From Naegleria gruberi (taxonomy: Eukaryota), in assembly GCA_000004985.1 (NCBI GenBank), contig GG738909.1: a DNA stretch of 64,000 bases; one strand, written 5' to 3'. Position numbers and translations under genes: made by a program. The notes beneath the pieces are model-generated. The model was given only the letters and a program-made list of their open reading frames with translations, was not told where the DNA came from and made no database searches. Shown one piece after another: positions 13,044-45,237 of this stretch (the stretch's first letter is position 1; the number at the start of each line of letters is the position of its first letter).

Positions 13044-14729
13044 TTAGTATCTATGATGATCTGAATCTCTTCCTGGAGTGTTATGCTCTTGAATTGAGGC
13101 AACATTGAAAAAATCTTCATTTTTGTTTCCTTCCTGTTGACTGGTTGTCTTCAGGTAAATCTTTTTCAGTAATCTTTTGAATACACCACCAATTAAGGCA
13201 AGTAAAATACCCAACAGACCTATTCCACAAATAATAAAGAATATCAAAAAGAATTTAGAACCTGAATTTTTCAGTTTAAGATCGCCATATCCAATAGTTG
13301 TTAGTGTAATAAATACAAAGTAGAGACTATCACCAAACACCCAATCTTCAAATGCCATAAAGATGAGAGCTCCAACAATGGAATACGTTGCCACTAGGAA
13401 GAAGAAATATACAATTTGACTAAGAGGATGTTTCACAATTACAGAAACAACTCGTTCTATCCTACTAGTCTTTCTTTGAGTGGAATTGAAACTGCATGAC
13501 ATGCAGAGTTTGATGAAGAATACTATAATATTGGAAATTAAGGTGAGGAAGGATTTGGTGTTTTGCATTAACTTTTTAAATAATACTCCTGTCATGGCTC
13601 CCATCGTTGCCAATCCCAAAATACCAAATAAAACTACAAATAGTTTTCCTGCAACTGTTTGAGGAACAACATCTCCATATCCTACAGTAGTAACTATTTA
13701 GACGAAAGTTAAAAGAATTGTATGATTTGAAATTAACTTACACGTCACAGTACTAAAATACAAGCAATTAGTATAATACCAATGGTCAATATTGAATAAA
13801 TCATAGGTAATGTCTGTCTCATTAGAGGAAGTGGTAACGTTATTAATGGTAAAGTTACTGGTCATTTGATTCAGGGTTTGAGCTTCATAGGTTCCCTCAA
13901 TTAACCAAATTGGAACACTAGCAACAAGGAGGAAGATGAAAATTGATACTATCAACAATAAGGCATAGCAACAATTCTTGGAGAATTGCTTACAGGTAAT
14001 ATCTTCCACTTGGAAATATTCATCAGCTGTGTTATGTCGAGTTCTTTCACTACGTTTGTGATATCTGGATTGGTAATATTCATGATCTACTTTCTTTTCC
14101 TTCCTAAAGCTTTGATTGGACAAAGCCATATACTCATACCTAGCATTTAGACTTTCAAATAAAAAGTCTGAAACATGACACATTGCCATGCAGGTTTCTC
14201 TTTCATCCAATTCATTGTACTGTCCTGTTGTCTTTTTCCACATTAATGATTCAATATCTGAAACATCTGCCAACACTGTTTGAAAAACATCAAAATTCGA
14301 TATCGTTACTTGATAGTCCTTTTTGAAATAATCTTTAGACAGGTATTGTCTCGCCACTACACAATATCTTCCATCAGGGTATTTAGCTCTAGCCACTAAA
14401 AAGTCATCCTGTTCGTCCACATAATTTATTTTCATCCTCCTTGGTGAAATTAGCCTCCTATTGTTACTACTAGTTCCATCTGTATTATCGGTATACAATG
14501 AATTCTTATCAATTTTGACACTAGACAATTCATAATTTCCTGTCATCATTGATGGGTCTTCCGACAATCGTATAGGCACAGAAAGTTCTGGTAACTCTCT
14601 TCTCGATGATGATATTGATGGTGGTAAAAGTCCATCTTCACTATAACTTGAATTCATCACCTGAATATCTGGCACTTCATACGAATCTTTATCTAACAAA
14701 CTTTCCGTTAATTCTTTTCTTGATGACAT
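13044..14729 (-). CDS. Two-pore-domain (4TM/2P) potassium channel. Model is complement(join(13044..13693,13742..14729)).
   Basis: Two selectivity filters: TFTTVGYGD (spanning a 48-nt intron) and TLTTIGYGD. Each lies between hydrophobic helices. There is a long cytoplasmic N-terminus. Confidence 0.75.
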
Positions 14730-15985: not shown

Positions 15986-18900
15986 ATGACATCTCTCAAT
16001 GTTAATGTGTTTGACGATAGAGGTTCAAACAGTTCTCAAAGTAATTCGAGGGTGCTGCTCTCTCCACCTCAGGGAGCCAACAATTACTTACTAATTCCAA
16101 CCAGTAACTATGCAGGATCATCAGTATGTTCCTCTGACAGACATTCCAAAACTGACATTTCAGGTTCTGAAGTTAATGCGGTAACAAAACTGAAGAACTC
16201 GACTTTGGAGTTTGTACTCTTCATACAAGACAACCAAGTGAAGGAGGGAATCTATGGTTATGTGATAACCTTGTTGATTCACTTGTACATGTTTTGGATT
16301 GGAATTTTTCTACCAAATCTTGGACCAGAAATGATGTACGGAGATTGGGGAACATGGATTTTCTCAGTACTCAACTATGCTATTACTCTCTCATTTGAAA
16401 GGATCCCTTATAAGGGAGGTATTGTATTGGCTTTTATTGGAGTAGGTATTGTATTGGTATTTGTAATTCTATTGATCTGGACAATCTTTGCCTACAAGAC
16501 AACCTCCCAACATTTAAAGAACTCGAGAAGAGCTATTGCCATCTTTTCCAAAGTATTTCCATTCATATCAGTACCTCTCTTGTACTTGATGACATTCTCT
16601 CTTGATTGTAATTATACAGTAAGCTCATCAAATCTGAATAGATTTGAATTCTATTCCCATGAGGTGATCCAATGCCACGATACTAGCAATATTATATTTG
16701 TGGTGGTAATGATCTTGGCCATCCTGTTATTGATTATACTCAATGTATTCTCCATGCTCATTGTACCAAACTGCCATCCTCAAAATATAGCTCCATTTGT
16801 GACCGATAATCCAGTTTTCATGAGCTTGTTAGTTGCCTTCAATCTGTGGCAACTCTTTTTACACTTTATCATTCCAACACAATACTCTTTTATGAGAGCT
16901 ATTGTTCATAGTGTTGGATCTATTATTTTAATTATAATTTTTGCCAAGCTGATTCCATTCATTAGAAGAATTGAGAATAGTATTGTATTTGGTTGCCTGT
17001 TGGCTAGATTAGCTTCGAGTATTGGAGCTATTGTAACTTCTATTGTAAATAACCCATCCCTATCAAAGATACTGCCATCGGTGGATAATACACTTGGTGT
17101 TGGACTTGCAGGTCTAACTATTGGTTTGATTATTATTGGTTTTGTGCTTGGTTTCTCCCTTATGGAATTGTATACGAGATTTATTGTGAGATCTATTAGA
17201 AACTTTGTTCTGGAATGTATTCAATCAGATAATGATGAAACAAATCTAGATTCCAAAGAAACTGAAAAATACATTGAGAAAGAAGCACAAATTATTTATC
17301 AACAGTTGGTTGAGTCAAGAAAATTAAGGCACCTTAGAATATTCTTTAAATTTTCTATGAAATTCAAAGAAAAATATCCAACGGAAAAATCAGAAACGCC
17401 CACACAGCACAATCTACTCGATATTTATATTTGTATTGCTCTGATTAAGGGGTTCTCTTCCAATAACCAATTAGATAATGAGATTATCCTTCTCTCTAGT
17501 ATGATTATTGCAAATTATTTGCCAAACGAGGTCAATTCTACAACATTTGCTCAAGGACTTTTGAAGAAAGCTTTTAAAAGAAGACCATCCACTTACTATA
17601 ATTTATTAATTAGTCTAGCTCAAAAACAAGTAGAAGCAACGGTCTATCAAACCAATCCAGAGAGCAGAAACAATGTTGAAATGGCCAAGCTTATTGGTCA
17701 CTTAGAAAGAAGACAGGATGAATTACGAGCACTTCACAGAGCTTTCTGGAAGGAAATCATGCAAGAAAATATCAATCATGAAAAATGTGAATCTATTATT
17801 GTAAGGATTGGGATATTGTCTCATGAATGTGAAACTAAATTCAAGAATTTAATGCACATTTACAAAAACGACAAGACAGTTCTTCGATGTGTTGCTAAAT
17901 ATGTAGAATCTTTTAAATTCAATAAGGAAGCTGCTCAGGAATTATATTCTGAAGCAACAACAATTGAAGAAGAGGATTCCAAACGAATGAATGCCTCCTC
18001 TAAAAGAAGAATTAAAAAGAACCAAAAGAACAGAGTGCATCCTCAACAAATCAGTCACGCTTTTGAGACGTTATCTTATGGTGATGCTAATCATCATGAG
18101 GTAGAGTCCACTGTTGTAGGAGATTTGAATAACGATTTTGGTGGTGTTGAGAATAATCCAGAATTGAAGAAGGAGCTTCTGTTCAGGAATGCATTGGCCA
18201 TCTCACATAAGAATCATTCACATCTCACAATGTTTTTCATTTTCATTGTGCTATCCTTGCTAATTTTGGTTTCAACATTAGTAATGAGCTTGATGTTTTC
18301 GAATTATGTTACTGAGAGCGTACTTGTTGTGGATACTGCCTGTACACCGATTGCATCTGCTATTCGAATTGTTAGTGGAACAAGAAGTTATCAGAGCTCT
18401 CTATTGTTGTACAGTTCCAATTCATCAGCTTGGCCTTCATTATTGGCAGAATATGGCTACTCGAGCCTTTCTGAATTCAAGAAAGCTCACAAGAAAGAGC
18501 TAAGGGATAATATTGATTACTTAATTCTATTGAAAGAGCTAGCACAAACAGCCAAGTTTACCACTGATATGTACTCTGAATTTCATGAATACTACTATAG
18601 CTTTAATCAACCAAAGGCAAATACTAATGGTTTGGAAAAGATTTACAACTCTACCACAGCTATCAATATTACCATTGCAGATATTACTAATTTGGCTATA
18701 ACCTATTCAGAGCAGATTTACAAATTTGAAGATGAGGATTATCTACATACTTTCAGCAGTTATCCTTTCATGATACTATTCAACAATAGGAATATTATGA
18801 CAGCAGCTTATTCTTCATTCTGTTACAAATTTGTTGAGGAATCCAAGAGCTATACCAAGACGATTTCCAATACTTTTATTATTTACTACTCTTGCTCAAT

Positions 18901-21257
18901 TGTTGTTTATTTTACTTACACTGCTATTTATTTGTGCTTTGCAAGATTGGATTTGTCTTTTTTGAAAAAGCTTATTGTTTTATTGGAAAAGAATGTGTCA
19001 AAGCATGAAGCAGGAAAAATGTATCACAATTTGGGCAAGCTAGTCCAAGATGACAGCTCTGTAAGACCGGCCAAGAACTCTGCTTTATACCCTAGGAATG
19101 TTGTGGTAGGATTGGGAATTGTGACAGCAATCTGTGTTGCACTCTGTGCTGGTTTGTTCCTAGCTCAAACTCTCAGCAATTCTCAATACAGCTTTGAGTC
19201 CTATGTCACCATGAGGGATGCTTTCAATGCATTAGAAAACTCCCAATATATTGCAGAAGCGATAACTGAGGAATTCATTAATTTAAAAATTGCTGACAAA
19301 ACATTTATTAATGGATTGGTTTCATCTAATACTGAGCGTTCTGAATCTATTCAAGCATCAATTAAGAAATTAAGATTCTATTGGAATATGTGCATGTATG
19401 GGTCTAATTATTACCCAGATGAGACTCTTGTGATTGGTCTTTTCGAAAAGACTGATTTGATGATAAAGGGAGAAGCTAATTGTACATTTGAAAAGATGAT
19501 TTCACATAATTGCAGCATTGGTGTTGATAAATTGATCACAACTTACACGACTAAAGCCACACAACTCACAGAAGATATTGATCTCAAATCAACAACATTT
19601 GAATCATTATTTGATGACTATTTGGTAGTTAGTTTTTTCTCTACCTATGTAAGCAATTCATTACTGTCATTTTCAGATGTATTTGCTATGGCTGCCTCTG
19701 TTCCATCAGACAAGTTGGTGATTCCATTTGCCATTCTTGGATTTTTGACTTTGTTTATATTCTCGATTGGTATTTACATGTCAATGGGAAAGTATTTCAA
19801 TTCAGTCCAACAACTGCGTCTTCTTTTCAATTATCTACCTCTAGACTTGATGGACTCAAACGAAAATATTAAGAATTATATTGTACATCATCATCTTCCT
19901 GACTCATTCTCAAACATTTTTAGAAGAAAGAAAGGTTCTTCATCAGAGGGCGACTCAAAAGTTCGAAGCATTTTGAACGCATCTGTAGATGGAGCAGTGA
20001 TGTGCAGTGGAGAGAAGGTTGATATTGAAATATTCAATCCAGCAGCTCAAAAGATATTTGGATATAATCAAACAGAAACGATTGGCAGATCATTGTATCA
20101 ATTATTTGAAAAGAATGAGCAATCGAAAATTAAAAACCTCATTGATGAAATGTTAGTGAATGCAGCAAGAGGTGATTCGAAAGGAGATTCTATTGAATTG
20201 GAATGTATCAGAAAGAATCAAACAAGCTTCCCATCACGTGTCAATATTTTTGCCACTCTTCACAATTCTCAAAGTGTTGTCACTTGTTTCATTAAGGATA
20301 TTACAACAGAGAAGAAGCATAATTCATTATTGACAGAAGAAAAGAAACATTCTGAAGAATTATTATTGAATATTTTACCAAGTGCAGTGGCAAGTAAATT
20401 GAAATCAGGAGAAACTTATATTGCAGAGAAATTCAATGATGTTTCATGTTTTTTTAGTGACATGGTTGGATTTACAAAATTAAGTACTGGAATTCAAGCA
20501 TCTGAATTGGTTCAAATGTTGAATGAAATTGTAATTGGATTTGATGATTTGACAGACAAATATAATTTGGAAAAGATTAAAACGATTGGAGATTCATATT
20601 TTTGTGTGGGTGGATTACATGGATTAAATGCACAATCAGATCATCCTGAAAGAATTTTGAGATTTTCCATTGATACATTTGATGTTTTACAAAGATTTAA
20701 TTCAAAATCAGGAAAACAACCATCTGAACAAATTAATATTCGTGTTGGTATTAATACTGGAAGTGTTATTGCAGGTGTTATTGGGAGGAAGAAATTTGCC
20801 TATGTATGTTTTTAATTTCAACATTTTAACATTTTATTGTGTAAATTGTACATTTTCAATATTTCATATTAATATATTAATTAAATAGGATTTATGGGGA
20901 GATACAATTAATACAGCTTCAAGAATGGAATCTAATTCAATTCCAGGAAGAATTCAAATTTCCAGATCAACCTATGAAAGAGTTTATGATTTGGGTTTCA
21001 CTTTTGAAGAAAGACATTTAAATGTGAAAGGAAAGGGTGAATGTATTGCTTACATGTTGCATGAGAAACATCACACTCCAGCTCTTGTTCCATCCTTCAC
21101 TGACATGTTGAGAACAAGTTTAAACATTTTACAAAAGAAAAATTCTGCAAATCTTGAAACATTGAATGAACCCAAAACACCAACAAGAAACAATGATAAT
21201 ATTACCTTGACAATCAATCAAGAAGCCTACCTATCTCCAAATAATACTTTGGAGTAA
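15986..21257 (+). CDS. Polytopic PAS-domain class III adenylyl cyclase of about 1730 aa. Model is join(15986..20803,20889..21257).
   Basis: A 1609-codon exon encodes a multi-TM N-terminal block, further TM helices and a PAS-like segment. The cyclase core FFSDMVGFTKLS...KIKTIGDSYFCVGGL...GVIGRKKFAY|DLWGDTINTASRMES spans an 85-nt GTATGT...AG intron. Both metal Asp, the specificity Lys and Asp, and the transition-state Asn/Arg are present. Confidence 0.8.
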
Positions 21258-21840: not shown

Positions 21841-22570
21841 ATGGTTAAAGGTTTACTTTTGACTCTTTTAGCAGTCCTTGTTGTCATTGTTGCTGTTGTA
21901 CATGCACAACAATCAACATGTGGTTCCTTGTCAAACAATTCTCGTTACATTAACCTTGTCGGTTCTTGGAGAGAAACTTCGAGTGGTAAGATTTGGACCA
22001 GTGTTCAACAGGGAAATCATTTCACTTGGACACAACAAGGTACCAATAGAAAGGCAACTGGTTTTGTTGGTAAGTAAACTATAGTTTCGAATGAACATGT
22101 CATTTGTGTTTGTGAAAATAGTTGCTCCATGTCAAATTTCTACTGCAGTTGCATATATTACATTTGATGGAAGTACTCATTGGAAAGTTAGTATTTCCTC
22201 CGATGGAGAAATTATTCGTGGACCTTCAGAAACTTTTACTAGAGTGAATGCTACTCAACCAGTTGCTCAACCAAGAGGTCAATATAAGGAAAAGTCAGGA
22301 AAGATTTGGACTGTCACTGGCTCTACTTGTCATGCTTTTACTTTGCGTAATCAAGGTAAGTTTCGAATAGTTTCAGATAATTAAAAATTCTTAATTGAAA
22401 CAGATGGAAGAACTGCTGAAGGTTTCTACTCAAATGATGAATCTACTGGATTGACTACTATCTATATTACATTCCATGATCCTACTGGAGATACTATTTT
22501 GAGATCAACTACTCCTAATATGGATATTTGGCAATTATCGAATGGTGATGTTTTCAGAAGAGTTGTTTAA
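21841..22570 (+). CDS. Small secreted protein with two internal repeats. Model is join(21841..22069,22122..22355,22404..22570).
   Basis: Signal peptide MVKGLLLTLLAVLVVIVAVVHA. Two GTAAGT...AG introns of 52 and 48 nt have consistent phase. The repeat SGKIWT..G occurs twice. Confidence 0.6.
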
Positions 22571-22579
22571 GGAAATAAA

Positions 22580-24305
22580 TTAATTTCCCACCAAAGAATA
22601 GTTCAATATTTTCAATTTTTTAGAAATATTAGAATTGACTATTTGGGAAATATCCAAATTAGAATGAATCACATTCAATTCAGTTAAAGTATTTCCAAGA
22701 TTGTCCACCAATTTGGATAGATCAGAAATATTCAAGTTTTTAACTCCATTCAGTGAAAGGCTTTGCAATTTTGGAGGAAATTTACAATCAGAAATCGCTG
22801 AAAGATTGCTGAAATTACAAAAATCCATTTTGAGAATTTTCAAATTTCTAAATTGTTGATTCTCAAAGAAATATTCAAAGTCCTCTTCTTTGAGAAGGTA
22901 ATTATTGCTCAAATCTAAATATTCCAAACTTTTAAATCTGTCATCCTTAACTAGATGTTGAAAAATATCGCTTGTCAAGAAACATGATTGTAAATCAATA
23001 AATTTCACATATTTGAAGGGAGTTTTCATAAACAGTTCAAGATTGGGTTTCTTGACCCTAATTCCGCCTTCATTCATAATTCCATTAAATTCACGGCAAA
23101 CTAATCTCATGTTCAGAATGTCATCCAAATCAAAGAATTCTGAAACAGAAAGAATTTCGTCTCGTTTCAAAGGTCTTGCTGTCCAGATAATTTCAATTTC
23201 TGGTTTGGAAAGAATTGCATCCATTAAATTGGTGAATCGAGTGGTTGGAATATTGACTTTCCAATTTGGATCAACTTTATCCAACCATTTGTCCACTTCT
23301 GAAGGTGTTGGAATGAAATTCAGATCGATCATATCAAATGCTGGTCTTCCAACAACTTCATTAAACATTCCAACTAGAGATTCTCTATGGAAACAACAAT
23401 CAACAACAAAGTGCTTGGCAATTTTAGATTCTCGATCCAAATTAAGAAACTTTTCAATGATAAAGTCTTTCACCTCATTTGGATCTGAATCATTTCCCTT
23501 AAAATCCTTAAAGAATGATGAAAGCTTGTATCCTCTCCTAATCTTTTCTCTCAACACTTCAAATTTTGTGAAAATTACATAAAGTCTCTTGATTTCCTTT
23601 CTTTCCAAAACACTCTGAAAAAGTCTATACGAATCGTCAAATCTATTCAAATCCGAAAGTTCATAACACAATTCATTGCACTGAGATAGAGAAATTACAA
23701 AGCAATGTTTACATTCTGAGCTCGTAATTAAATCTTCCCATCTACTTCTCTCACATCTCTGTCCGCCAGTATCGAAACATGTAACTCCACAAACAGTTCT
23801 TTCAACTATTCCAACAGTTTTCATATAGATTCTAGCATAATCCTTTGGTATTAATCTCTGTTTCATATACCTTTCTAATACATTTCTTTGATTGAAATAC
23901 GAAACTGTTTCACTAATTTCTGAAATACAATTTCCTTCAATTTCCTTTTCATGAATACATTTCTGAAATCCAGAATCGTGATACATTAAATAGAAATATT
24001 CATGTATTTCATCATCCAATTTCTTATTAGGTATTCTATTCTTTACCAGTGCAGAATCTTGAACTTTATCAAATGCTTGTCCAAATTTAGTAAAATCATT
24101 CCTGGATGGATTTATATCGGATAGGAATAGTTTAAAACACCAGGGAAGATGATTATATTTTGTGGTGTTGCAACGGGAAATTGTAGGGTTGTTCAATCCA
24201 AGCAAGGTATTAAACAATGTTGCTAAAATATAGAATATTCGAATCCTTTAGAATATTGTAATTTAATTTCTTACTTTTTCCTGATCCACCACTTCCCAAG
24301 AAAAC
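22580..24305 (-). CDS. G-protein alpha-like GTPase domain fused to a C-terminal F-box plus leucine-rich repeats. Model is complement(join(22580..24222,24275..24305)), with the 5' end uncertain.
   Basis: G-alpha motifs: P-loop FLGSGGSGKT (on the upstream exon across a 52-nt intron), switch I ARIYMKTVGIVERTV, and switch II/G3 CFDTGGQRCERSRW. The C-terminal helix region resembles G-alpha. The same ORF continues through an F-box-like EILSVSEFFDLDDILNMRLVCREFNGI into LRRs. A one-codon ATG first exon at 24349-24351 is possible. Confidence 0.55.
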
Positions 24306-24550
24306 CTTTGCAAAATAACTATGATTGTTAAATTGTGATTTTACTTACCATCTTGTCGTGTGATGCAAAATCTTCTCCCTCATTATGTGTTCATTTTTTT
24401 TGTGAAGTTTCGTCCAAGTTCTTAGAATGTTCCAAACTGACCAGTGGTGGCTACCGTCAATTATTAACAATAGTTCCATTGTTGACCTGATGTTTACTTT
24501 ACAAAAATTTCACAATAAATTGACTTGAGAAATTCAACAAATATTTATCC

Positions 24551-26872
24551 TTATTCAATTGTAGTCTTCATGGTGCTTTCCATAAATTTCAAGTAGATTT
24601 GAGTTGTAATCTCAGTCAATTCATCAAATATATCTTCAAAAGTTGGTCTCTCTTTTGGATCAATGTGTGTACATTTCATTCCCAATAAATGAATCTTTTG
24701 AGCTTGTTCTTGAGTGAGGAAATTGAACCTCTCCACCAATTGAACTACTGAAATAAAACTTCCAAAAACATCTGCCATATTGGCAGGTCTATATCCAGAA
24801 ATGAGTGTGTGCATTGTGACTCCAAAACTGAAAATATCCAAAGCTCTAAACACAAACACTGTGTCTTGTTGCTTATTTCTCAATTCTGGTGCCATGTAAT
24901 ATAATGTGCCAGCAGTGGTGCAGGAATAGGTTTCAGGTTTGTCCACTGTGAGAGAAACATCAAAATCTGACAATTTGACATTATCAATAATCTCAACTCC
25001 ATCAATTCTCATCTTTTTCACCAAAATATTATTTGGTTTAATGTCATAATGAATCACATTCTTGGAATGTAAATATTTCATTGTATCTGAAACCTTGACA
25101 AGGGAGAATAATATTTGAACAAGTTCAATAATTGTTGGTTCAGTTATTGAAAATGAAGATAATGAATCATCCATCTTTTCCATGAATAAATGTTCGATTC
25201 CATCTTGATTATAGTGATGTAACAATTTTACAACACCATCATGTTCACAAATTCCATTCATAATTTCAATCTCACTCGTTCCAATATTATTAGAAATTTT
25301 CTCTGCAACAGGAACATTATTCATCAACACTGAATATACAGCTCCATTTGCCCCATTTCCAAGATATGTTCTATTGGCTCTGTTAATGACAGCCCCTTCA
25401 ATGACTGTGGCTCTATTTAAAGTGATAGTTGAAAGAGTTTCTCTTTTCTTCAATCTGCAAGATAAAATATATGACATATTATATGAAAAATATTCTCCAA
25501 GAGACTTGAACTCATCCAATTTCCTATTCAGCATTAAATCAGCTTGTGGAGCCAACATATATTTGAGAATGCTATTATTTGTGATGATTTCTGATTGATT
25601 GTCCACAAGTTTTGGCAAAGTGTAAATGTTAATGAAATATCTGAATGGCTCAATCTCCCCTTCTGACAATAATTCAACCAATGATTCTGCTTCAACACCT
25701 GAACTGAGTAATATTCTGACATCATGGTGATTTCTCTAATTGTAGATGCGAGTTTTTATAAGTATTGGAAATTTTTACAAATAACAAACCTTAATTAGGT
25801 GATGAGCAATTAATAATCTCATAATTTTTGTAAAATTATTAGTTTTGGCAATTTCAAATGGTGTTTCTCCCTTTCTTGGTGTGAATATTGATTTTTTAGC
25901 AAACAAACTTACACACTAATAACCATAAATGGTATTCCAAATAATTTACACTCAAAAACTTACTGACTATTCAAAAAGTTAGTTGGTTATCTTTAATAAA
26001 TACATACACACTGTGAAATGGTTGAGAAATGATCGATTACGAAATCAACTTACATTCTTTTAATTGTTAATGCTTCATTGTGGAAATGAAATTAAACTTA
26101 CATGCTTTAAAATAATTAATTTGAAAAGTAATTGAAATACTTACACACTATAAAAACGTCAGTAAACTCCAATAGATCACTATCAACTTACACACTAATC
26201 AAATTATTCCTCTGCAAAACAACTAATAAGCATACTTACTCCCTAAAATCTCTTATTCGAAACTGTATATGCTAAACTTTACTTACTCCCTAAAACCATT
26301 CAAAATCTCAAATCTACAAATCTACTTACTCCATTCTTATAATCAACCAATGGCATACTCTTCAGTAAATATTTCACAACTTTAACTTGTCCATATTTGC
26401 AAGCAATGTACAACAAAGTTCTCGCTGGAGGATAGTTCTTATTCTTCTCTGGAATTAAAACATCAAGAAGTGATGGTAAATCTTTCATTCGACTCAATTC
26501 TTTCACATTTCCTTGTTTCACCCAATAGGCAGCCAATAATGCATTGTACATTTGTGGAAACAATCGAATAGTTGTTAGTGCTGGACTCCATTGGGATGGC
26601 TGCACCAATAGTTGGAAAATAGGATGAGATGGTTGTCGGAAAGGATAATTGGAAGGAAAAGAAAAAGTGAAAACAAATGGCTCCTCCTTTCAAATTCCAA
26701 TAATTCATTCATCATTGATCAATAAATTGATAAATCTATTCGAAATAAACTCACATCAACAATTTTAAAAGTTACTGTCCATTCCGAAAGTTCATTGTCA
26801 TTCTTAGGTTCGACAGTAAAGCCAGGATGTGTCAGTTGTTTAATATCTCGCAATTCTCTCTGTACTCTCTTC
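24551..26872 (-). CDS. UBC-like (non-catalytic) N-terminal domain, ankyrin repeats and a Ser/Thr protein kinase, about 582 aa. Model is complement(join(24551..25735,25790..25870,26330..26686,26750..26872)).
   Basis: Kinase motifs: LGNGANGAVY, VAEK, HYDIKPNNILV, DFD and YMAPE. Upstream exons encode MLKRVQRELRDI...SEWTVTFKIVD and ...QWSPALTT (an E2-like fold lacking the catalytic Cys) plus ankyrin-like repeats. Introns of 54, 459 and 63 nt have consistent phase. Single-gene linkage is inferred. Confidence 0.5.
25871..26329 (-). repeat. Intronic array of about 9-10 tandem units of roughly 45-50 bp. Each unit begins with a consensus 5' splice site (GTAAGT, read on the minus strand) and ends in AG.
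   Basis: On the plus strand, ACTTAC recurs every 45-50 nt (25908, 25958, 26049, 26098, 26140, 26187, 26234, 26282, 26324). The units are separated by 3-4 nt spacers (GGAG, TGT, TCA, CAT, AAT). Confidence 0.5.
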
Positions 26873-28743: not shown

Positions 28744-30048
28744 TTATTTAGTTTTTAAAGATTGTGAAAATGATTTGGTGTCTTCGGTTGAAATAACAGT
28801 CAATCTTCTATCAGTAGCAAACACTTGTGTTCCAGCATTAATAGGAATCTTGAATTCAACTCTAGGACTTACTGAACTATCGCCTGTTTTGAAGATGACC
28901 ATCCCAGTATCACACACCACAGCAAACTTTTCATCATCTACCAAACTAATGTGATTCGAACAATTTTTTGCATTATTTCCAGTAACATAGCTCAAATTAA
29001 TTTCATAAGATTTTGAAATATGAATTCCCTTAATAGAATAACTATATACGAATGGTGGTGAGTTTCTTGCTTTACACATAAAACTAAACGTCTGCGGGGT
29101 AGAAACAATGTTGGAACAATCATTCAAATCAATTGGAACTCCAAATTGATCTATTAAGGCAATAGATGAAGACTTGCCACCTGTATCCATAACACGACGT
29201 GCACTATAATTGACAATCATGTAAGATTTTGGTCCTTTTTGAATAGTAGCAACCAGAGTATTGTCGTAATAAGTTAAGGCAAAGTATTCTTGTCTTCCCT
29301 CAACATGGAACGTATCATTAACCGAATACCACAGGGATCCAGTTGCAGCACTAAATTGATAACCAAAAGCTTTACAAAATACGTGAATGTAATCCTCAAA
29401 AAGGAAGAGTTTAACATGTCCATTAAAATCTCTGTAATGTTCCCAAAGTTGTACACCTGTATCAGAGTTGTAACATATGAGAAGATTATTATTTACGACA
29501 GCAATTCCATTTCTTCCAGATTTAACAAGAATCATTCCATAGATAGTGGAATAACTTCTAGAGGTTGTGAAACTAAAGTGAGTACCATTCAATACGGAAG
29601 TTCTCAAAATAAAGTCCATATTTGTCTTGGGATTTCTTCTCACTGTGAAATAGTAATTGCCCTCTTGTTGATACAGTGGTGAGATCTCCTTAACTAATTC
29701 TCCTTCCTCTGAAGATGGAAATTGAACGATTGGTAACAAGGTTCCATTTACAAGATCAATAGCAATCAAGAAATCCATTCCAGTGGCAATATTATTGGCC
29801 ATTCCATATAGTTGCTTGCTTAATGGATCCATCACGACAGAACGTGGGAGAATTCTCCAACCGAGATGAGCAGTTTGATAGACAGTAGATGTTGCATCAT
29901 CTCTAACATATCGACTTCTCCACATGTTTCCATCAGGCATGGCCCAACTATCATCTAAACTAGCACCATAATCAAGGCACCAAATTCCCTCAATCAAGAC
30001 GAAAAAGCTAAGCAAACAAATAGTGAATGAAAACGGTGAGTTTTTCAT
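28744..30048 (-). CDS. Secreted protein of 434 aa with a signal peptide, possibly a beta-propeller or lectin-like fold
   Basis: Single ATG ORF with N-terminal hydrophobic signal MKNSPFSFTICLLSFFVLIEG. Confidence 0.55.
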   Translation of the reverse strand: MKNSPFSFTICLLSFFVLIEGIWCLDYGASLDDSWAMPDGNMWRSRYVRDDATSTVYQTAHLGWRILPRSVVMDPLSKQLYGMANNIATGMDFLIAIDLVNGTLLPIVQFPSSEEGELVKEISPLYQQEGNYYFTVRRNPKTNMDFILRTSVLNGTHFSFTTSRSYSTIYGMILVKSGRNGIAVVNNNLLICYNSDTGVQLWEHYRDFNGHVKLFLFEDYIHVFCKAFGYQFSAATGSLWYSVNDTFHVEGRQEYFALTYYDNTLVATIQKGPKSYMIVNYSARRVMDTGGKSSSIALIDQFGVPIDLNDCSNIVSTPQTFSFMCKARNSPPFVYSYSIKGIHISKSYEINLSYVTGNNAKNCSNHISLVDDEKFAVVCDTGMVIFKTGDSSVSPRVEFKIPINAGTQVFATDRRLTVISTEDTKSFSQSLKTK

Positions 30049-30224: not shown

Positions 30225-31714
30225 TGCAATAGTCTCACAATAAATAGAAAACTTGCCATACAATTGTGTAACATTGATTTATTTTGTTATTTACAAGATA
30301 TTGTTTAGATTTGTTTCATGATCCTTAAATCCAGCTATATCATGATTGACTGGTGCAATTAAAATATCTCAGTAAAATCTATTTCACAATTCATTCTCTC
30401 AGACACTACACAACAAATGTGGAGGGAGAAATTATGATTGATGAATACTTCTCTGATGATAGTTGTTAAAATTATTCTAAACTAATATTAATTTTGAGAA
30501 GGAGTGGCAACTTGTTGCTTTTCCAACAATTTTCTTTCCTTTCTCTCTTGCTTTTGAGCTTGTTTTTCCAATTTTCTTTGAGCTTTGATTATTTGCTTTT
30601 CAAGTTTCTTTTCCATTTTCCAAGCATGCTTTTGTTCCTTCTTTTGGAGTTTCAACAAGAGCTTTTCATCAACAGTTGGTGTGACAATATCAGCATTGTT
30701 GGAAACTGGTTCAGTTGATACTTGTTGAACTGGTGGTACAGTAACAATTACTGGTTCAACAATAGGTACGTTAATTGGAACAGTTGGTTCACTATAAGTT
30801 GTGGTAGTTGAAACAGTTTCTGGTTGAGTAGAAGTATTTCCTTGTTGCTTTCTTTGCTTCTTCAATGCAATCTTTTCAAGCTTGTATTGAGCTTTGATCA
30901 ACTTCTTTTCCAATTTAAATGCTTTCTTTTCTTCCTTCTTTTCAAGTTTGAGTTTAAGTCTTTCTTCCTTGTTTGGAGATGACTTAATAGTAGATGGAAC
31001 ATTTGAGTCAATGCTAACATTGACAGGATGGAATGACTTTCTCAAAGATTTCATTTCAAATTTTAGAGTCATGATTTGTTCCTTCTTCATCTTAATTTCA
31101 TCTTTCAATAATTCAATTTGTTGCTTCTTTTCGGAAAGACTTTGAGATTGTTCTTCAGTCAATTGAAGTTTGACCTTTCTTTCTTTCTTTTCCTTTCTTT
31201 CCTTCTTTTCATGATTCAATTTCTTCTTCATTACTCTGAAAAGAATTGGTTTATCTTGTGGAATTTCTTGAATTAATTTCATCATTTCAGAAAAATCATT
31301 TTCATTATTAATTATATAAATTGTTTTTCTCTTCTCAGAAGATGGAACAATAGCCTTGATCTTGAAAGTGGATAATAACACTTCATCAGAAGAAGTAGCA
31401 GATGGTAAATCTTGAACAAATTCTCTAACAGATTCATTCAAGCCTCCGAAATTAATTAATTGGAAAACCTTTTCAATACTTTCTTCCTTGTTCTTTCTCA
31501 TGATTAATTTACCAGTGAGAGTATTATTATTATTATTATTATTATTAGTACACATTTTCTTATCAATTGTTTTAGATTATTTAAATAATTGTTTGATTTG
31601 TTTTTTTTGTTGGTTGAAAAATGAAAATAGAAAGGGTGGGAAATTTTATTTCATTCCACAACAGCAAAGTTCACCATCTCTCCAAAAATAGTTTTTTTGT
31701 AAGGTTACAACAAC
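30225..31714 (-). repeat. Copy B of the roughly 1.5-kb segmental duplication, inverted relative to copy A at 427-1905
   Basis: Its reverse complement aligns with 427-1905, including the UTR-like flanks. Confidence 0.8.
30488..31555 (-). CDS. Lys/Glu-rich coiled-coil protein, duplicated gene copy B (355 aa)
   Basis: Near-identical to 581..1642. It has 8 Asn codons rather than 6 and a few substitutions (for example ADIVTPTVDEK vs DEIVTPTVDAR). Confidence 0.6.
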   Translation of the reverse strand: MCTNNNNNNNNTLTGKLIMRKNKEESIEKVFQLINFGGLNESVREFVQDLPSATSSDEVLLSTFKIKAIVPSSEKRKTIYIINNENDFSEMMKLIQEIPQDKPILFRVMKKKLNHEKKERKEKKERKVKLQLTEEQSQSLSEKKQQIELLKDEIKMKKEQIMTLKFEMKSLRKSFHPVNVSIDSNVPSTIKSSPNKEERLKLKLEKKEEKKAFKLEKKLIKAQYKLEKIALKKQRKQQGNTSTQPETVSTTTTYSEPTVPINVPIVEPVIVTVPPVQQVSTEPVSNNADIVTPTVDEKLLLKLQKKEQKHAWKMEKKLEKQIIKAQRKLEKQAQKQERKERKLLEKQQVATPSQN

Positions 31715-31786: not shown

Positions 31787-33321
31787 TTACAATGAATATT
31801 TACAAGGAACAGATTTGCAAATTTGTGCTAATTTAGAAAGTATGGTTGAGCAAAAAATTGGCTCTTCATAATAATCTTCCAATTGTTCTGCCCATTTACT
31901 TGCTTCCTCCTCATTTGTAAATTCAACTTTTTCAGTGCAATATTCAATCAAATCATTTAGTCCATGTTCGTGAGCTTTCTTCATGACGTTTAAGAGATTT
32001 CGATTGGGAATTTCCAAATGTTCCTTTCCGTAAATGTATTCAATAATGAAAAGAGTTTCGTATGGAAAGATTTCACTAGAATTCCAAGTACCATTCTCAC
32101 TTGAGAGAAATGCTTCAAAAAATAAGCTTTTTGACATGAGAATTGTTTTGTGACATTTCACGGTGAATGAAGTGAGGCCATCTTCTGATGTAATTGAAAT
32201 GTCAATGTCAGAATCACATTCTTTGGTGAATAATTCCCATAGTGGATTAGAAATGTCCTCTTTTTCTGTAATATCCAATTCAGTTATTGAGTTATTGGAA
32301 ACTAGAAGATTGTGTAAATTATTCAAATAAATTCCACATTCGAAATTTTCAATATAATACGCAACTTTTTGTTTTGCCTTTTCAGTAAAACCAAAACTTT
32401 CCAAATATCCCAAATTAACACCTTCGAATAAAATTTTCTTCCAATAAGTCAACTCATTCTCATCAGCTTTATCCAATAGAAAGAGTAATGCAAGTTTCCT
32501 CTCCAAAATAATCGACTCCTCCTCATCCAAATCATCAGGCAACACTTCAATACTATCATACATTAGCACATCCACAATAACTTGCAATTCTTCTCTTTCC
32601 AATTTTGACAATTGACTCAACAATTTCTCATTCAGAAAGACATTTTCAAAAAATGTTGGAAACATTACTTTCAATAAGGGAATAAAGGCAGTAATTTGAT
32701 TATTCGAATCATGATTGAACTTTTTCAATGAAATTCCAGATGTATAGTTTAGTATTTCGTAATGTTTTCTTTCGGATAGTTCATCATCATGAGGATCGAA
32801 ACTAGGATGCAGAGAAATGAGTTTGATGATCAATGGATTGTCGGCTATTCCAATTGGATACAAATAATCCCACTATTGATTATTGAGCTTCTTTGAAAGA
32901 ATCGAATACTTACTGTGTACTATTAATTGATGATAAATATTATTCGAAACAAAAACTTACTGGCTAATATCATGTTTTCCAATTTCCGATTTTTTAAAAT
33001 TTACTTACAACTACAACCTAGATTACAATTTACCAATTAATTAAATTTTCACAATTAAAATTATTCGAAACTTACACCAACATTAACATTCACATTCGGA
33101 ACACTTGCCAAAACTTTTGCCATTTCAAAATCATCCGAAACACAAGCATGCATAAATAATGGACAATAGGAAAAGTATGAATTTTCACAGGTGAAGGAAC
33201 GAATTTCTTTGTTAATTATTTCTTTGGAAAGTTTAGTTTTGAGCCATCTGAGTCCTTCTACATTCTTCTCACTAATAAAATTGACGCCTTTTAGTAAAAT
33301 CTCATCAAAGTTTGTTGACAT
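31787..33321 (-). CDS. Ankyrin-repeat / BTB(POZ)-domain protein. Model is complement(join(31787..32872,33076..33321)).
   Basis: Ankyrin-like first exon (MSTNFDEILLKGVNF...LFMHACVSDDFEMAKVL). The BTB-like region is FTVKCHKTILMSKSLFFEAFLSS. The intervening 203 nt carries a GTAAGT-repeat array, which is assumed to be one intron. Phase 0 at both junctions. Confidence 0.5.
32873..33075 (-). repeat. Second intronic array of tandem splice-donor-like units (4 x GTAAGT...AG of about 40-50 nt)
   Basis: On the plus strand, ACTTAC occurs at ~32910, 32958, 33010 and 33070. The units share the TTCGAATAA motif with the 25871-26329 array. Confidence 0.4.
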
Positions 33322-43219: not shown

Positions 43220-44704
43220 TCACTCAATAAAACCATAATTTTTCTTTTTCAGTTGCTTTTTCATACGTTTCAGATACTTGTTTCCATTGTCTATTCCATT
43301 ATCATATACATTTAAATGTTTTAATTTCTTCATTTTGGATAGGTATTTCACTCCTGAATCTTCAATAAAATTCTCAGAAATATCCAGACGTGTTAAGTGT
43401 TTCAATTTAGATAAGGATTTAGCACCTTCAGTTTCAATACTATTTCTATGAACATCAAGTTCAGTCAATTTTTCCAGCTTGCTTATAGATTCAGCTCCTT
43501 CATTTCCAATTGAAATTTCAGAAATCCAAAGTTTAATCAATTGATTCAATCCACTTATTAGTTTTGCCCCCTCATCTCCTAAATTATTAGCTGATATATC
43601 TAAAAAAGTTAAATTTGTCATTTCACTAATTGATTTGGTGCCATCTATTCCTATTAAAGTTGAGTGCATATAAAGTGTTTTCAATTGTTTCATTTCACTT
43701 ATTACCTTTGCACCAGCGTCACCAATCCAGTTGTCACCAATATTCAGACTGATCAGTTGTTTCAAAGAGGTTATTGATTGGACTCCATCAACTGAAACAA
43801 TTTGTATTGCATGAGCTGACAAATTAGTTAATTGTTTCAATTCACATATAAACTTAATTCCTTCCTCATCAATTCCATTTAATCCAACACTCAGATCAGT
43901 CAAATTTTTCATTTGACTAATACATTTGCATCCTTCTGTCCTTATTTCGTTATGATCTATGTCAAGTTTTGTTAGTTGACTTAGTTCTATCAAAGATTTT
44001 ACACCACTATCATCAATACCATTTTCACTTATTTCAAGGCTTGTCAATTGTTTCATTCCAATCATTGATTCAATACCCAAGTTTGTGATCTTACACTTAC
44101 TAATATTTAGAATAGTCAGTTTTTCAAGTTTTGATAAATATTCAACAGCCTTATAACCAATATCATTATAGCCAATACTCAATTCCGTAAGATTAATCAA
44201 ATTACCAATTGATTGAGTTGCTTCCGAACTAATCACATTACTTATCAGATCAAGTTTCTTCAATTGGTCCATCTTACTAATAATTTTAGCACCATCATCA
44301 TCAATTAAATAGGAATCAAATACCAGAGTTTGCAAATTCTTAAACTTCCCAAATACCTTTAAACTTTCATTACATATTTTCGATTCCTCCGTAAAGTGCA
44401 CTCCACAAATACATTCCAAAAATTGGCTCCTTTCCATTAATTTAATTCTTTCCTCATCAATGGGCTGTTTAAATTTCAAATAAATTTCCGAACGTTCCTT
44501 GATTACTCTCATCCATTGTCTTGATATACGAGTGTAATTTTTCAAAACAAACCAATTTGAATATTTACCTCCTATAAGAAAGGAAATAATTTCAAAACAA
44601 ATGTCATCGGGAAATTCTTTAATTTCATGCTGATGACTGATTATTACTTGGTTATTCTCTTCTGTGAAGTTGGGATCAATTCCTGTTTCTCGTAATCGTT
44701 TCAT
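43220..44704 (-). CDS. Leucine-rich-repeat protein (RNI/RanGAP-like LRRs), about 495 aa
   Basis: Many 28-aa LRRs (LxxLxxLxLxxNxIgdeGak). The start is inferred at the internal Met (MKRLRETG). The longer track ORF to 44911 runs antisense through tRNA-Gln and is not credible as coding. Confidence 0.55.
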   Translation of the reverse strand: MKRLRETGIDPNFTEENNQVIISHQHEIKEFPDDICFEIISFLIGGKYSNWFVLKNYTRISRQWMRVIKERSEIYLKFKQPIDEERIKLMERSQFLECICGVHFTEESKICNESLKVFGKFKNLQTLVFDSYLIDDDGAKIISKMDQLKKLDLISNVISSEATQSIGNLINLTELSIGYNDIGYKAVEYLSKLEKLTILNISKCKITNLGIESMIGMKQLTSLEISENGIDDSGVKSLIELSQLTKLDIDHNEIRTEGCKCISQMKNLTDLSVGLNGIDEEGIKFICELKQLTNLSAHAIQIVSVDGVQSITSLKQLISLNIGDNWIGDAGAKVISEMKQLKTLYMHSTLIGIDGTKSISEMTNLTFLDISANNLGDEGAKLISGLNQLIKLWISEISIGNEGAESISKLEKLTELDVHRNSIETEGAKSLSKLKHLTRLDISENFIEDSGVKYLSKMKKLKHLNVYDNGIDNGNKYLKRMKKQLKKKNYGFIE

Positions 44705-44810
44705 TTTTTTTATTGTAAAAACAAATCGACTCTTTCGCAATAGCAGCGAGCCAAAACCAAGCCTAACCTTAATTGATGTAAGATTTACTGCCTTTTTACA
44801 ATAATGTGCT

Positions 44811-44881
44811 CGTCTCGTGGTGTAATGGTAGCATAGTGGACTTTGAATCCATTGACGGAGGTTCGATTCCTCCCGAGACGG
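44811..44881 (+). tRNA. tRNA-Gln (anticodon TTG)
   Basis: Acceptor CGTCTCG/CGAGACG, anticodon loop CTTTGAA, T-arm GGAGGTTCGATTCCTCC. Confidence 0.8.
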
Positions 44882-45237
44882 TAAACGTGGCGAGCCATAC
44901 GAATTTTGCATGTGGACGATAACTATTTTTTTACTTTCCTGGTATAGCCATTTCTTGAAATACCATTAGAATCGAAAATATTAATTGGGTTTTTTGAAAT
45001 TGTTCAGATATTTATGTAATGTACAAAAGGAATTCAAAGAAGAGGAATATTAACTTTCTATTGGAATTCTAGTGATATTTTTGAGACTTTGCATATTTCT
45101 ATTGGGAATACTATTTTGGACGCTTTTCAGTTTAACAATATCTTTAGAAATTCGTTCCTATTGCGATAAAGGAATATTCTTTATATTCATTGTATTAAGG
45201 GAAAATTGTTCATATTTCACATTGTAAGTAACTGAAT

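What the first reader, a model, noticed from the sequence alone, without database searches (positions are those of the whole stretch)
22580..24351. G-alpha-like GTPase fused in one ORF to an F-box and leucine-rich repeats
A single uninterrupted minus-strand ORF carries G-alpha hallmarks: P-loop GSGGSGKT, switch I RIYMKTVGIVER, and G3 FDTGGQRCERSRW. It also has a G-alpha-like C-terminal helix region. The NKxD motif is degraded to TKFE. The ORF then continues about 230 aa through an F-box-like motif and LRRs. The P-loop sits on a tiny upstream exon with almost no N-terminal helix. A G-alpha domain wired to an SCF-type substrate adaptor is not an architecture I know.
Basis: partly seen in the sequence, partly recalled or inferred. 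Interest (0 to 1): 0.8.

Follow-up and report, generated by a model that had tools for sequence, protein, structure and literature searches.

The report
G-alpha fused to F-box/LRR adaptor
This Naegleria gruberi gene really does encode one protein that joins a heterotrimeric-G-protein alpha-type GTPase domain to an F-box plus leucine-rich-repeat module of the kind that feeds substrates to SCF ubiquitin ligases, an undescribed architecture shared by a small amoeba-specific gene family.

Summary
The window is Naegleria gruberi, and the public model of this gene is truncated: 468 aa, starting at an internal Met. The minus-strand ORF 22580..24222, plus a 44-nt P-loop exon (24318..24275), scores as a near full-length G-alpha domain (Pfam 139 bits, cut-off 48.8). 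After a roughly 55-aa low-confidence linker it continues into a three-helix F-box-like motif and about six LRRs. The best structural matches of that part are FBXL17, SKP2, FBXL2, KDM2B and TIR1. Two N. gruberi paralogues and one environmental homologue share the fusion. The three N. gruberi genes share the intron right after the GSGK codons, and their G-alpha domains form one clade. The G-alpha part is atypical. The switch-I arginine finger is lost (Tyr here, Met in both paralogues). NKxD is TKFE in this copy. There is no N-terminal helix or lipidation motif, and the receptor-coupling C-terminal tail is replaced by the linker. The start is ATG 24383 (or 24479), joined through a 30-nt intron. 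The most likely function, which is inferred, is an SCF substrate receptor carrying a G-alpha-type switch or binding module. Expression and biochemistry are untested.

The parts
24349..24383 (-). Proposed exon 1: ATG AGG ... AGA TG (MREKILHHTTR + 2 bases). The same frame is open back to an alternative ATG at 24479.
   Evidence: The phase matches exon 2 only if this ORF, not a lone ATG, is joined. The 44-aa ORF 24345..24479 is listed. No transcript evidence.
24319..24348 (-). Proposed intron 1, 30 nt, GTAAGT...TTTAAC..CATAG. It contains the only stop (TAA) between the upstream ORF and the P-loop exon.
   Evidence: It is shorter than the other introns seen here: 40, 52, 67 and 85 nt. This is the least certain part of the model.
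24275..24318 (-). Exon 2, 44 nt: (C)YFAKVFLGSGGSGK, that is beta1 plus the P-loop (G1).
   Evidence: The Pfam G-alpha alignment starts here.
24223..24274 (-). Intron 2, 52 nt, GTAAGA...TTTTAG, phase 1, immediately after the GSGK codons.
   Evidence: Both N. gruberi paralogues have an intron at the identical codon position and phase (40 nt in L001, 67 nt in L003). The public model P0005 of paralogue C splices exactly there.
22580..24222 (-). Exon 3: the rest of G-alpha, the linker, the F-box-like motif, the LRRs and the stop TAA (22582..22580).
23354..24302 (-). G-alpha domain (model residues 18-316, interrupted by intron 2): Ras-like domain plus inserted helical domain.
   Evidence: Pfam PF00503, 139 bits. 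PDB sequence hits to G-alpha. AF2 model with Foldseek top hits all G-alpha.
23798..23833 (-). Switch I, RIYMKTVGIVER. The Mg-binding Thr is kept. The arginine finger (G-alpha-i1 R178) is replaced by Tyr159 (23827..23825).
23738..23776 (-). G3 / switch II, FDTGGQRCERSRW, with Asp and the catalytic Gln retained.
23558..23569 (-). Degenerate G4 motif TKFE in place of NKxD. The G5 motif (T)CA(T) is DCCF at 23404..23390.
   Evidence: The paralogues have TKYE, NKMD and SKHQ at G4, and SA at G5.
23177..23347 (-). Linker (about residues 319-375), poorly conserved and predicted disordered. It replaces the receptor-contacting C-terminal tail of G-alpha.
   Evidence: pLDDT below 50 over ORF residues 319-355. 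The alignment is gappy here.
23066..23176 (-). F-box-like motif RPLKRDEILSVSEFFDLDDILNMRLVCREFNGIMNEG, predicted as three helices.
   Evidence: Pfam F-box 23.1 bits (cut-off 20.5) on the C-terminal part alone; weak hits at the same position in all paralogues. The profile aligns to the F-boxes of SKP2 and FBXL3. Three helices in the model. FBXL top hits.
22583..23062 (-). About six leucine-rich repeats (residues 414-573).

Best explanation
What it is (shown). This is a real, single protein-coding gene of Naegleria gruberi of about 573 aa (605 aa if the upstream ATG is used). It is one of a small heterolobosean family. Its order is: short N-terminus, G-alpha domain (Ras-like plus helical), disordered linker, F-box, about six LRRs. 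The fusion arose once and was then duplicated.

How it works (inferred from what the two modules are known to do). The F-box docks the protein onto Skp1-Cul1-Rbx1, so the protein acts as an FBXL-type substrate receptor of an SCF ubiquitin ligase. The G-alpha module sits N-terminal to the F-box, which is where FBXL5 carries its hemerythrin sensor. There it serves as a nucleotide-state switch and/or docking surface for G-alpha partners such as RGS-domain proteins and effectors. In this way it gates or directs ubiquitylation and ties G-protein signalling to protein turnover.

The protein is not expected to act as a receptor-coupled heterotrimer subunit. It has lost the arginine finger, the Gβγ/membrane-binding N-terminal helix and the receptor-binding C-terminal tail. 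If it binds GTP it should hydrolyse it slowly. This copy, with TKFE at G4 and CC at G5, may bind guanine nucleotide poorly.
For: Identity and truncated public model.

G-alpha domain: Pfam 139 bits. Best solved relative is N. fowleri G-alpha7. Predicted fold matches G-alpha only.

Continuous ORF beyond chance.

F-box/LRR.

Conservation of the whole architecture at 28-38% identity in paralogues B (NAEGRDRAFT_49587) and C (NAEGRDRAFT_66027 locus), and at 49% identity between C and environmental homologue D.

Shared intron position after GSGK.

Monophyly of the fused G-alpha domains.

Catalytic-site changes. Switch II (GGQRxERxxW) and the P-loop stay conserved in all copies where they can be read, as expected if the switch or partner surface still matters.

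Precedent for a GTPase and an F-box in one Discoba protein: TbFRP, FYVE-F-box-GTPase (PMC3593210).

Background: Naegleria has very large RGS and cyclase families and self-activating G-alpha subunits (PMC9283941).
Against: - There is no transcript, protein or biochemical evidence for any family member.
- The F-box is below Pfam's threshold in the full-length scans and lacks the canonical Leu-Pro (LK here; LL and LI in the homologues). Skp1 binding is unproven.
- The 30-nt first intron is unusually short. If it is not spliced, an in-frame TAA precedes the P-loop exon.
- Degenerate G4 and G5 motifs in this copy argue against normal guanine-nucleotide binding.
- The AF2 model gives no confident contact between the two halves (pTM 0.52).
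- The public model of paralogue C splices out part of the linker and ends in a frame-shifted tail. A G-alpha-only isoform therefore cannot be excluded for that gene.
Confidence: 0.6

Rival explanations
1. Pseudo-GTPase version. The G-alpha domain no longer cycles nucleotide and is only a static protein-binding domain, acting as a second substrate or regulator receptor on the SCF adaptor. This may apply to this copy in particular.
For: In the window copy NKxD is TKFE and the G5 motif CA is CC. The arginine finger and its P-loop partner Glu43 are lost in all N. gruberi copies. The environmental homologue has SKHQ at G4.
Against: The P-loop GxxxSGK[ST], the Mg-binding Thr and DxGGQ with the catalytic Gln are intact in every copy where they can be read. 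Paralogue C keeps canonical NKMD and SA.
Confidence: 0.3
2. The F-box-like helices are only an N-terminal cap of the LRR domain and do not bind Skp1. The LRRs would then act in cis on the GTPase or as an effector-binding domain, as in LRR-Roc (ROCO) proteins or the RanGAP LRR domain, with no link to ubiquitylation.
Confidence: 0.15
3. The window copy is a decaying or N-terminally truncated paralogue. The TAA at 24345..24343 is a real stop, the P-loop exon is not translated, and the product (if any) starts at Met106, as in the public 468-aa model.
For: The 30-nt intron would be the shortest seen here. This copy has the most degenerate G4 and G5 motifs. The public annotation starts at the internal Met.
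Against: The P-loop exon is intact and flanked by consensus splice sites. Its downstream intron sits at the family-conserved position. Seventy-six stop-free in-frame codons upstream of Met106 match the G-alpha profile. The 546-codon exon has no stop in a 32% GC genome, against 39 and 68 stops in the other two frames.
Confidence: 0.12
4. Annotation or assembly artefact: two separate genes (a G-alpha gene and an F-box/LRR gene) only look fused.
For: None beyond the absence of transcript data. The public model of paralogue C ends after the G-alpha part.
Against: There is no stop codon and no donor-like site between the halves. The same continuous ORF is present in independent assemblies of two paralogues from a metagenome and in a 49%-identical environmental homologue. 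The tail of the paralogue C model is the out-of-frame reading of the conserved F-box.
Confidence: 0.04

Closest known systems
Canonical heterotrimeric G-alpha subunits (closest solved: Naegleria fowleri G-alpha7, PDB 6NE6; also G-alpha-q/i/t)
   Same: Ras-like domain plus helical-domain insertion. P-loop, switch-I Thr and DxGGQ switch II are conserved. The domain belongs to the Naegleria-specific G-alpha expansion.
   Different: There is no N-terminal helix or MG lipidation motif. The arginine finger is replaced (Y or M). NKxD and G5 are degenerate in this copy. The receptor-binding C-terminal tail is replaced by a linker leading into F-box/LRR.
FBXL-type SCF substrate receptors (SKP2, FBXL17, FBXL2, FBXL5, KDM2A/B, TIR1)
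   Same: A three-helix F-box directly followed by a curved LRR domain, and these are the best structural matches. As in FBXL5 (hemerythrin) or KDM2 (JmjC/CXXC), an extra domain sits N-terminal to the F-box (general knowledge of those proteins).
   Different: The N-terminal accessory domain is a G-alpha GTPase, which I found described nowhere. The F-box lacks the Leu-Pro and is borderline by profile. There are only about six LRRs.
TbFRP of Euglenozoa (FYVE - F-box - Ras-like GTPase; PMC3593210)
   Same: A GTPase domain and an F-box in one polypeptide, in the sister lineage of Heterolobosea within Discoba. Its authors propose a link to SCF and rapid turnover.
   Different: The GTPase there is Rab-like and lies C-terminal to the F-box. 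It has FYVE and no LRR. The authors found no N. gruberi orthologue. The origin is independent.
Plant extra-large G proteins (XLG1-3)
   Same: A G-alpha-like domain with degenerate catalytic residues, embedded in a larger protein (PMC8584482 for atypical plant G-alpha; the rest from general knowledge).
   Different: The XLG extension is N-terminal (Cys-rich, NLS). XLGs still pair with Gβγ and have no F-box or LRR. There is no sequence relationship beyond the G-alpha domain.
ROCO proteins (LRR-Roc-COR, e.g. LRRK2)
   Same: A GTPase domain combined with LRRs in one chain (general knowledge).
   Different: Roc is Ras-like, not G-alpha. In ROCO proteins the LRRs precede the GTPase, a COR domain is obligatory, and there is no F-box.

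Membership tests
G-alpha (Pfam PF00503) | Profile match above the curated threshold over most of the domain | tested here: met
   139.1 bits against a cut-off of 48.8, profile positions 26-329 of 333. Paralogues score 164 and 235 bits.
G-alpha (Pfam PF00503) | All-helical domain inserted between G1 and switch I | tested here: met
   About 130 aa lie between the P-loop and switch I, with the LWxDxGxQ-type hallmark (LMYHDSGFQ). The AF2 model has helices throughout this stretch, and Foldseek hits cover 230-306 alignment columns against G-alpha structures.
G-alpha (Pfam PF00503) | Intact G1, G2 (Thr) and G3 (DxGGQ) boxes | tested here: met
   GSGGSGKT, KT(V)G and DTGGQ.
G-alpha (Pfam PF00503) | Built-in arginine finger in switch I (G-alpha-i1 R178) | tested here: not met
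   Tyr159 here and Met in both paralogues. Its partner Glu43 is Gly in all three.
G-alpha (Pfam PF00503) | G4 NKxD and G5 (T)CA(T) guanine-recognition motifs | tested here: not met
   TKFE and DCCF in this copy. Paralogue C keeps NKMD and SA.
G-alpha (functional heterotrimer subunit) | N-terminal helix with lipidation for Gβγ and membrane binding, and a C-terminal alpha5 tail for receptor coupling | tested here: not met
   Only 12 residues (or 44 with the upstream ATG) precede beta1, and there is no Met-Gly start. Alpha5 runs into a disordered linker instead of a free C-terminus.
G-alpha (functional) | GTP binding and hydrolysis | not testable with these tools
   Needs recombinant protein.
F-box proteins / FBXL class | F-box sequence motif (Pfam PF00646 / PF12937) | tested here: inconclusive
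   14.6 bits in the full-length scan. The C-terminal part alone scores 23.1 bits against a cut-off of 20.5. Homologues score 13.9-19.6 bits at the same position. The VxKxW signature is present in the paralogues, and the Leu-Pro is absent.
F-box proteins / FBXL class | Three-helix F-box fold immediately followed by an LRR solenoid | tested here: met
   [not shown]
F-box proteins / FBXL class | Binding to Skp1 and assembly into an SCF complex | not testable with these tools
   No multimer prediction or experiment was available.
Plant XLG | N-terminal Cys-rich/NLS extension preceding the G-alpha-like domain | tested here: not met
   The N-terminus is 12-44 aa, and the extension here is C-terminal.
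ROCO | Roc-COR tandem | tested here: not met
   Pfam finds G-alpha and reports no Roc or COR match.

The most novel reading that the evidence does not exclude
A nucleotide-gated SCF substrate receptor. The GTP/GDP state of a built-in G-alpha switch decides which proteins the attached F-box/LRR adaptor hands to the ubiquitin ligase. Alternatively, the switch recruits G-alpha partners such as RGS or 7TM-RGS proteins or cyclases for ubiquitylation. Either way this would be a direct, single-polypeptide link between G-protein signalling and regulated proteolysis, in a lineage where G-alpha subunits self-activate.
Probability: 0.3. Interest if true: 0.75.

Novelty: new variant of a known kind. Interest (0 to 1): 0.55.

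Why it matters
G-alpha subunits almost always occur as stand-alone proteins that work through Gβγ, receptors, RGS proteins and effectors. A conserved family in which G-alpha is welded to an SCF-type adaptor would be a new output for this switch. It would also be a natural experiment on what a G-alpha domain can do without a receptor, Gβγ or its own arginine finger.

It is also a concrete annotation fix. The three public N. gruberi models are all truncated or mis-spliced, which hides the architecture from domain databases.

The family is small and lineage-restricted, and nothing is known about its expression. The immediate impact is therefore moderate.

Tried and rejected
- The one-codon ATG exon (24351..24349) is rejected on reading-frame phase.
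- Skipping exon 2 is rejected: joining 24349 to 24222 gives TGC AAC ATT GTT TAA (read from the sequence).
I used the 544-aa ORF translation instead. A look-up of P0001 found no contig, so no transcript-derived contigs were obtained.
- The search for homologous proteins was used three times. It returned only P0001 in two searches, and P0004 plus one generic LRR protein (P0153) in the third. It missed P0002 and P0003, which the exhaustive search found. Its negatives are therefore uninformative.
- The metagenome scan with the C-terminal profile gave only two weak tblastn matches (29-31% identity over ~100 residues). The one I opened (L005) is a 1021-aa bacterial-type LRR protein; L006 was not opened.
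- The afdb50 fold library was unavailable, so I could not look for the fusion among predicted structures of other species.
- Anantharaman et al. 2011 (Gene 475:63), the survey of G-alpha architectures, is not held. Four other literature searches found no G-alpha/F-box fusion.
- The supplement of the N. fowleri G-alpha paper gives no domain information for G-alpha9-13.
- tblastn of the protein against the window found no tandem paralogue.

Full report
**Source and gene model**

The window is Naegleria gruberi. The ORF product is 100% identical to a 468-aa 'predicted protein [Naegleria gruberi]' (P0001). That public model starts at the first ATG inside the long ORF (MYHDSGF...), so it lacks the P-loop and part of the helical domain.

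Reading the minus strand gives the following model:
- Exon 1, 24383..24349: ATG...AGA TG.
- Intron 1, 24348..24319: 30 nt, GTAAGT..CATAG.
- Exon 2, 24318..24275: 44 nt, YFAKVFLGSGGSGK.
- Intron 2, 24274..24223: 52 nt, GTAAGA..TTTTAG, phase 1.
- Exon 3, 24222..22580.

The product is 573 aa. The same frame is open upstream to a second ATG at 24479, which would add 32 residues.

Its 'ATG' is the end of codon AGA plus the TG that pairs with the first T of exon 2.

Intron 2 is well supported. Both N. gruberi paralogues have an intron at exactly the same codon and phase (40 nt and 67 nt), and the public model of paralogue C (P0005) splices there.

Intron 1 is the weak point. It has consensus ends and a TTTAAC branch-like motif, but it is shorter than any other intron I could verify (40-85 nt). 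If it is not removed, a TAA separates the start codon from the P-loop exon.

**Is the ORF more than chance?**

Yes. The other two frames of exon 3 hold 39 and 68 stops. Base composition gives a probability of about 3e-9 for 257 stop-free codons after the G-alpha domain. None of 200,000 shuffles of that stretch was stop-free.

**The N-terminal half is a G-alpha domain**

- Pfam G-alpha scores 139 bits against a cut-off of 48.8, over profile positions 26-329 of 333.
- The best solved relative by sequence is N. fowleri G-alpha7 (6NE6), followed by Gq, G11, Gi and Gt.
- In the AF2 model of the 544-aa ORF, block-mean pLDDT is 79-97 over most of the Ras-like domain (residues ~170-290) and mostly 58-77 over the helical domain. 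Its top PDB matches are all G-alpha.

Alignment with human G-alpha-i1, whose sequence I supplied from memory, and with the HMMER alignments to 6NE6 and Gq(R183C), shows the following:
- P-loop intact, with Glu43 replaced by Gly.
- Switch-I Thr kept.
- Arginine finger replaced by Tyr here and by Met in both paralogues.
- DxGGQ and the rest of switch II conserved.
- NKxD is TKFE here; the homologues have TKYE, NKMD and SKHQ.
- G5 is CC here and SA in the others.

There is no N-terminal amphipathic helix or Met-Gly start. Helix alpha5 runs into a linker instead of the free receptor-binding tail.

**The C-terminal half is F-box plus LRR**

In the full-length scan the F-box signal is weak (E 0.03). 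Scanned alone, the last 204 residues score 23.1 bits for PF00646 (cut-off 20.5, E 6e-5), plus LRR_4 and LRR_1. Each homologue has a weak F-box or F-box-like hit at the homologous position.

The family alignment shows WTARPL.EDEIL.I..F..LDDLLN...VCK.W, then RPNLDLF and LEYLDLSNNY. A profile of this region aligns to the F-boxes of SKP2 and FBXL3 and to SKP2's LRRs, but only weakly (E 0.02-0.05).

An AF2 model of residues 368-573 has mean pLDDT 79 and pTM 0.76. It shows three short helices followed by about six strand/helix repeats.
- Foldseek against the PDB puts FBXL17, SKP2 (several entries), FBXL2, KDM2B, TIR1 and KDM2A among the 14 hits with E<=0.001. Ten of those 14 are F-box/LRR proteins.

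I therefore regard the LRR domain as established. The F-box is probable at about 0.8. The missing Leu-Pro and the untested Skp1 binding are the open points.

The linker (about residues 319-375) is poorly conserved and of low confidence.

**The fusion is a conserved family trait**

The exhaustive HMMER search of 1.84 billion cluster representatives found 1149 G-alpha-type hits. Among the 150 listed, only three besides the query's own public model extend into the C-terminal module:
- P0002 is N. gruberi NAEGRDRAFT_49587, 38% identical over query residues 71-514.
- P0003 comes from a metagenome contig and is identical, where they overlap, to N. gruberi NAEGRDRAFT_66027.
- P0004 is a partial gene from a JGI metagenome (sources).

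Genomic contigs for these (L001, L003, L004) show the same single large exon running from G-alpha into F-box/LRR.

P0004 is 49% identical to paralogue C across both halves. It carries an extra intron inside the switch-II codons, so it comes from a different species.

A neighbour-joining tree of the G-alpha columns groups the three N. gruberi fusion genes in one clade. Stand-alone G-alpha proteins of Willaertia and N. lovaniensis are the nearest neighbours. That fits one fusion event followed by duplication.

All three public N. gruberi models hide the architecture:
- P0001 and P0002 start at internal Mets.
- P0005 (paralogue C) uses a GTGAGT..TATAG intron in the linker. That splice shifts the frame and ends in a 31-aa tail, which is the out-of-frame reading of the conserved F-box.

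The window gene has no donor-like site in its linker.

I did not see the fusion in N. fowleri, N. lovaniensis or Willaertia proteins. The library collapses relatives above 50% identity, and gene models may be split, so absence is not proven.

**Mechanism**

Shown: the domain order, the conservation and the catalytic-site changes.

Inferred: the protein is an FBXL-type substrate receptor that docks on Skp1-Cul1 through its F-box. The G-alpha module occupies the position N-terminal to the F-box, where other FBXL proteins carry sensor or targeting domains (hemerythrin in FBXL5, JmjC/CXXC in KDM2; general knowledge). It would act as a nucleotide-dependent switch and/or a docking site for G-alpha partners.

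Loss of the arginine finger predicts slow hydrolysis. Loss of the N-terminal helix and the C-terminal tail predicts independence from Gβγ and receptors. N. fowleri G-alpha subunits are reported to self-activate and to engage very large RGS families (PMC9283941), which makes RGS-type partners plausible. This copy's TKFE and CC motifs leave open that it is a pseudo-GTPase.

The rivals are, in order: pseudo-GTPase scaffold, an LRR domain acting without SCF, a decaying or truncated copy, and an artefact.

**Comparison with the known**

By profile and fold this is a member of the G-alpha family, but it fails several features of a working heterotrimer subunit. By predicted fold it resembles FBXL proteins, with borderline sequence support.

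A GTPase combined with an F-box has one precedent that I could find. This is TbFRP (FYVE-F-box-Rab-like GTPase) in Euglenozoa, whose authors found no N. gruberi orthologue (PMC3593210). Its domain order and GTPase class differ, so it is an independent invention.

No paper in the searchable library describes a G-alpha/F-box fusion. The main comparative survey of G-alpha architectures (Anantharaman et al. 2011) could not be read.

**Verdict**

This is a new variant of known kinds: a lineage-specific domain fusion. Interest is moderate to high for G-protein and ubiquitin specialists, and is limited by the complete lack of expression or functional data.

Noticed in passing
L001:487-2195 (paralogue C, NAEGRDRAFT_66027 locus from metagenome ERR1078381): The public 384-aa model P0005 splices a ~116-nt GTGAGT..TATAG 'intron' out of the linker. 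It ends in a 31-aa tail that is the out-of-frame reading of the conserved F-box. The unspliced ORF continues in frame through F-box/LRR. This is either a mis-prediction or a G-alpha-only isoform.
   Followed up: partly
L004:1-1113 (JGI metagenome 3300028027): This environmental homologue is 49% identical to paralogue C. It has an extra 50-nt GTATGT..TTACAG intron inside the DTGGQ codons that none of the N. gruberi genes has, and SKHQ in place of NKxD.
   Followed up: partly
window 15986..21257 (+): A very large multi-pass membrane PAS plus adenylate/guanylate cyclase gene. Its cyclase domain is split by an 85-nt GTATGT..AAATAG intron (20804..20888), verified by the conserved KFAY|DLWGDTINTASRMES junction. 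It served as a size reference for introns here.
   Followed up: partly
window 24551..25681 (-): A protein kinase gene (Pkinase 113 bits) ends only 72-167 nt upstream of the possible start codons of the G-alpha/F-box gene, on the same strand. That leaves very little room for a promoter and 5' UTR.
   Followed up: no
window 21841..22384 (+): Two adjacent ORFs encode a signal-peptide-like start (MVKGLLLTLLAVLVVIVAVVHA) and repeated 'SGKIWT...' units. They are probably exons of one small secreted repeat protein that converges on the 3' end of the G-alpha/F-box gene.
   Followed up: no
window 43220..44911 (-), 31787..32863 (-), 50036..51709 (-), 59937..61577 (+): Other neighbours are an LRR_6/LRR_8-rich protein, a BTB-domain protein, a SET plus MYND protein and an ADA2-like ZZ/Myb protein. 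Several long ORFs have no Pfam match: 54842..58984, 53140..54786, 28744..30048, 30488..31555 and 13698..14729.
   Followed up: no
[not shown]
   Followed up: no
tool behaviour: The word-indexed protein search did not return P0002 or P0003, although both are in its collection and score 164-250 bits by HMMER. Negative results from it should not be used for this family.
   Followed up: yes
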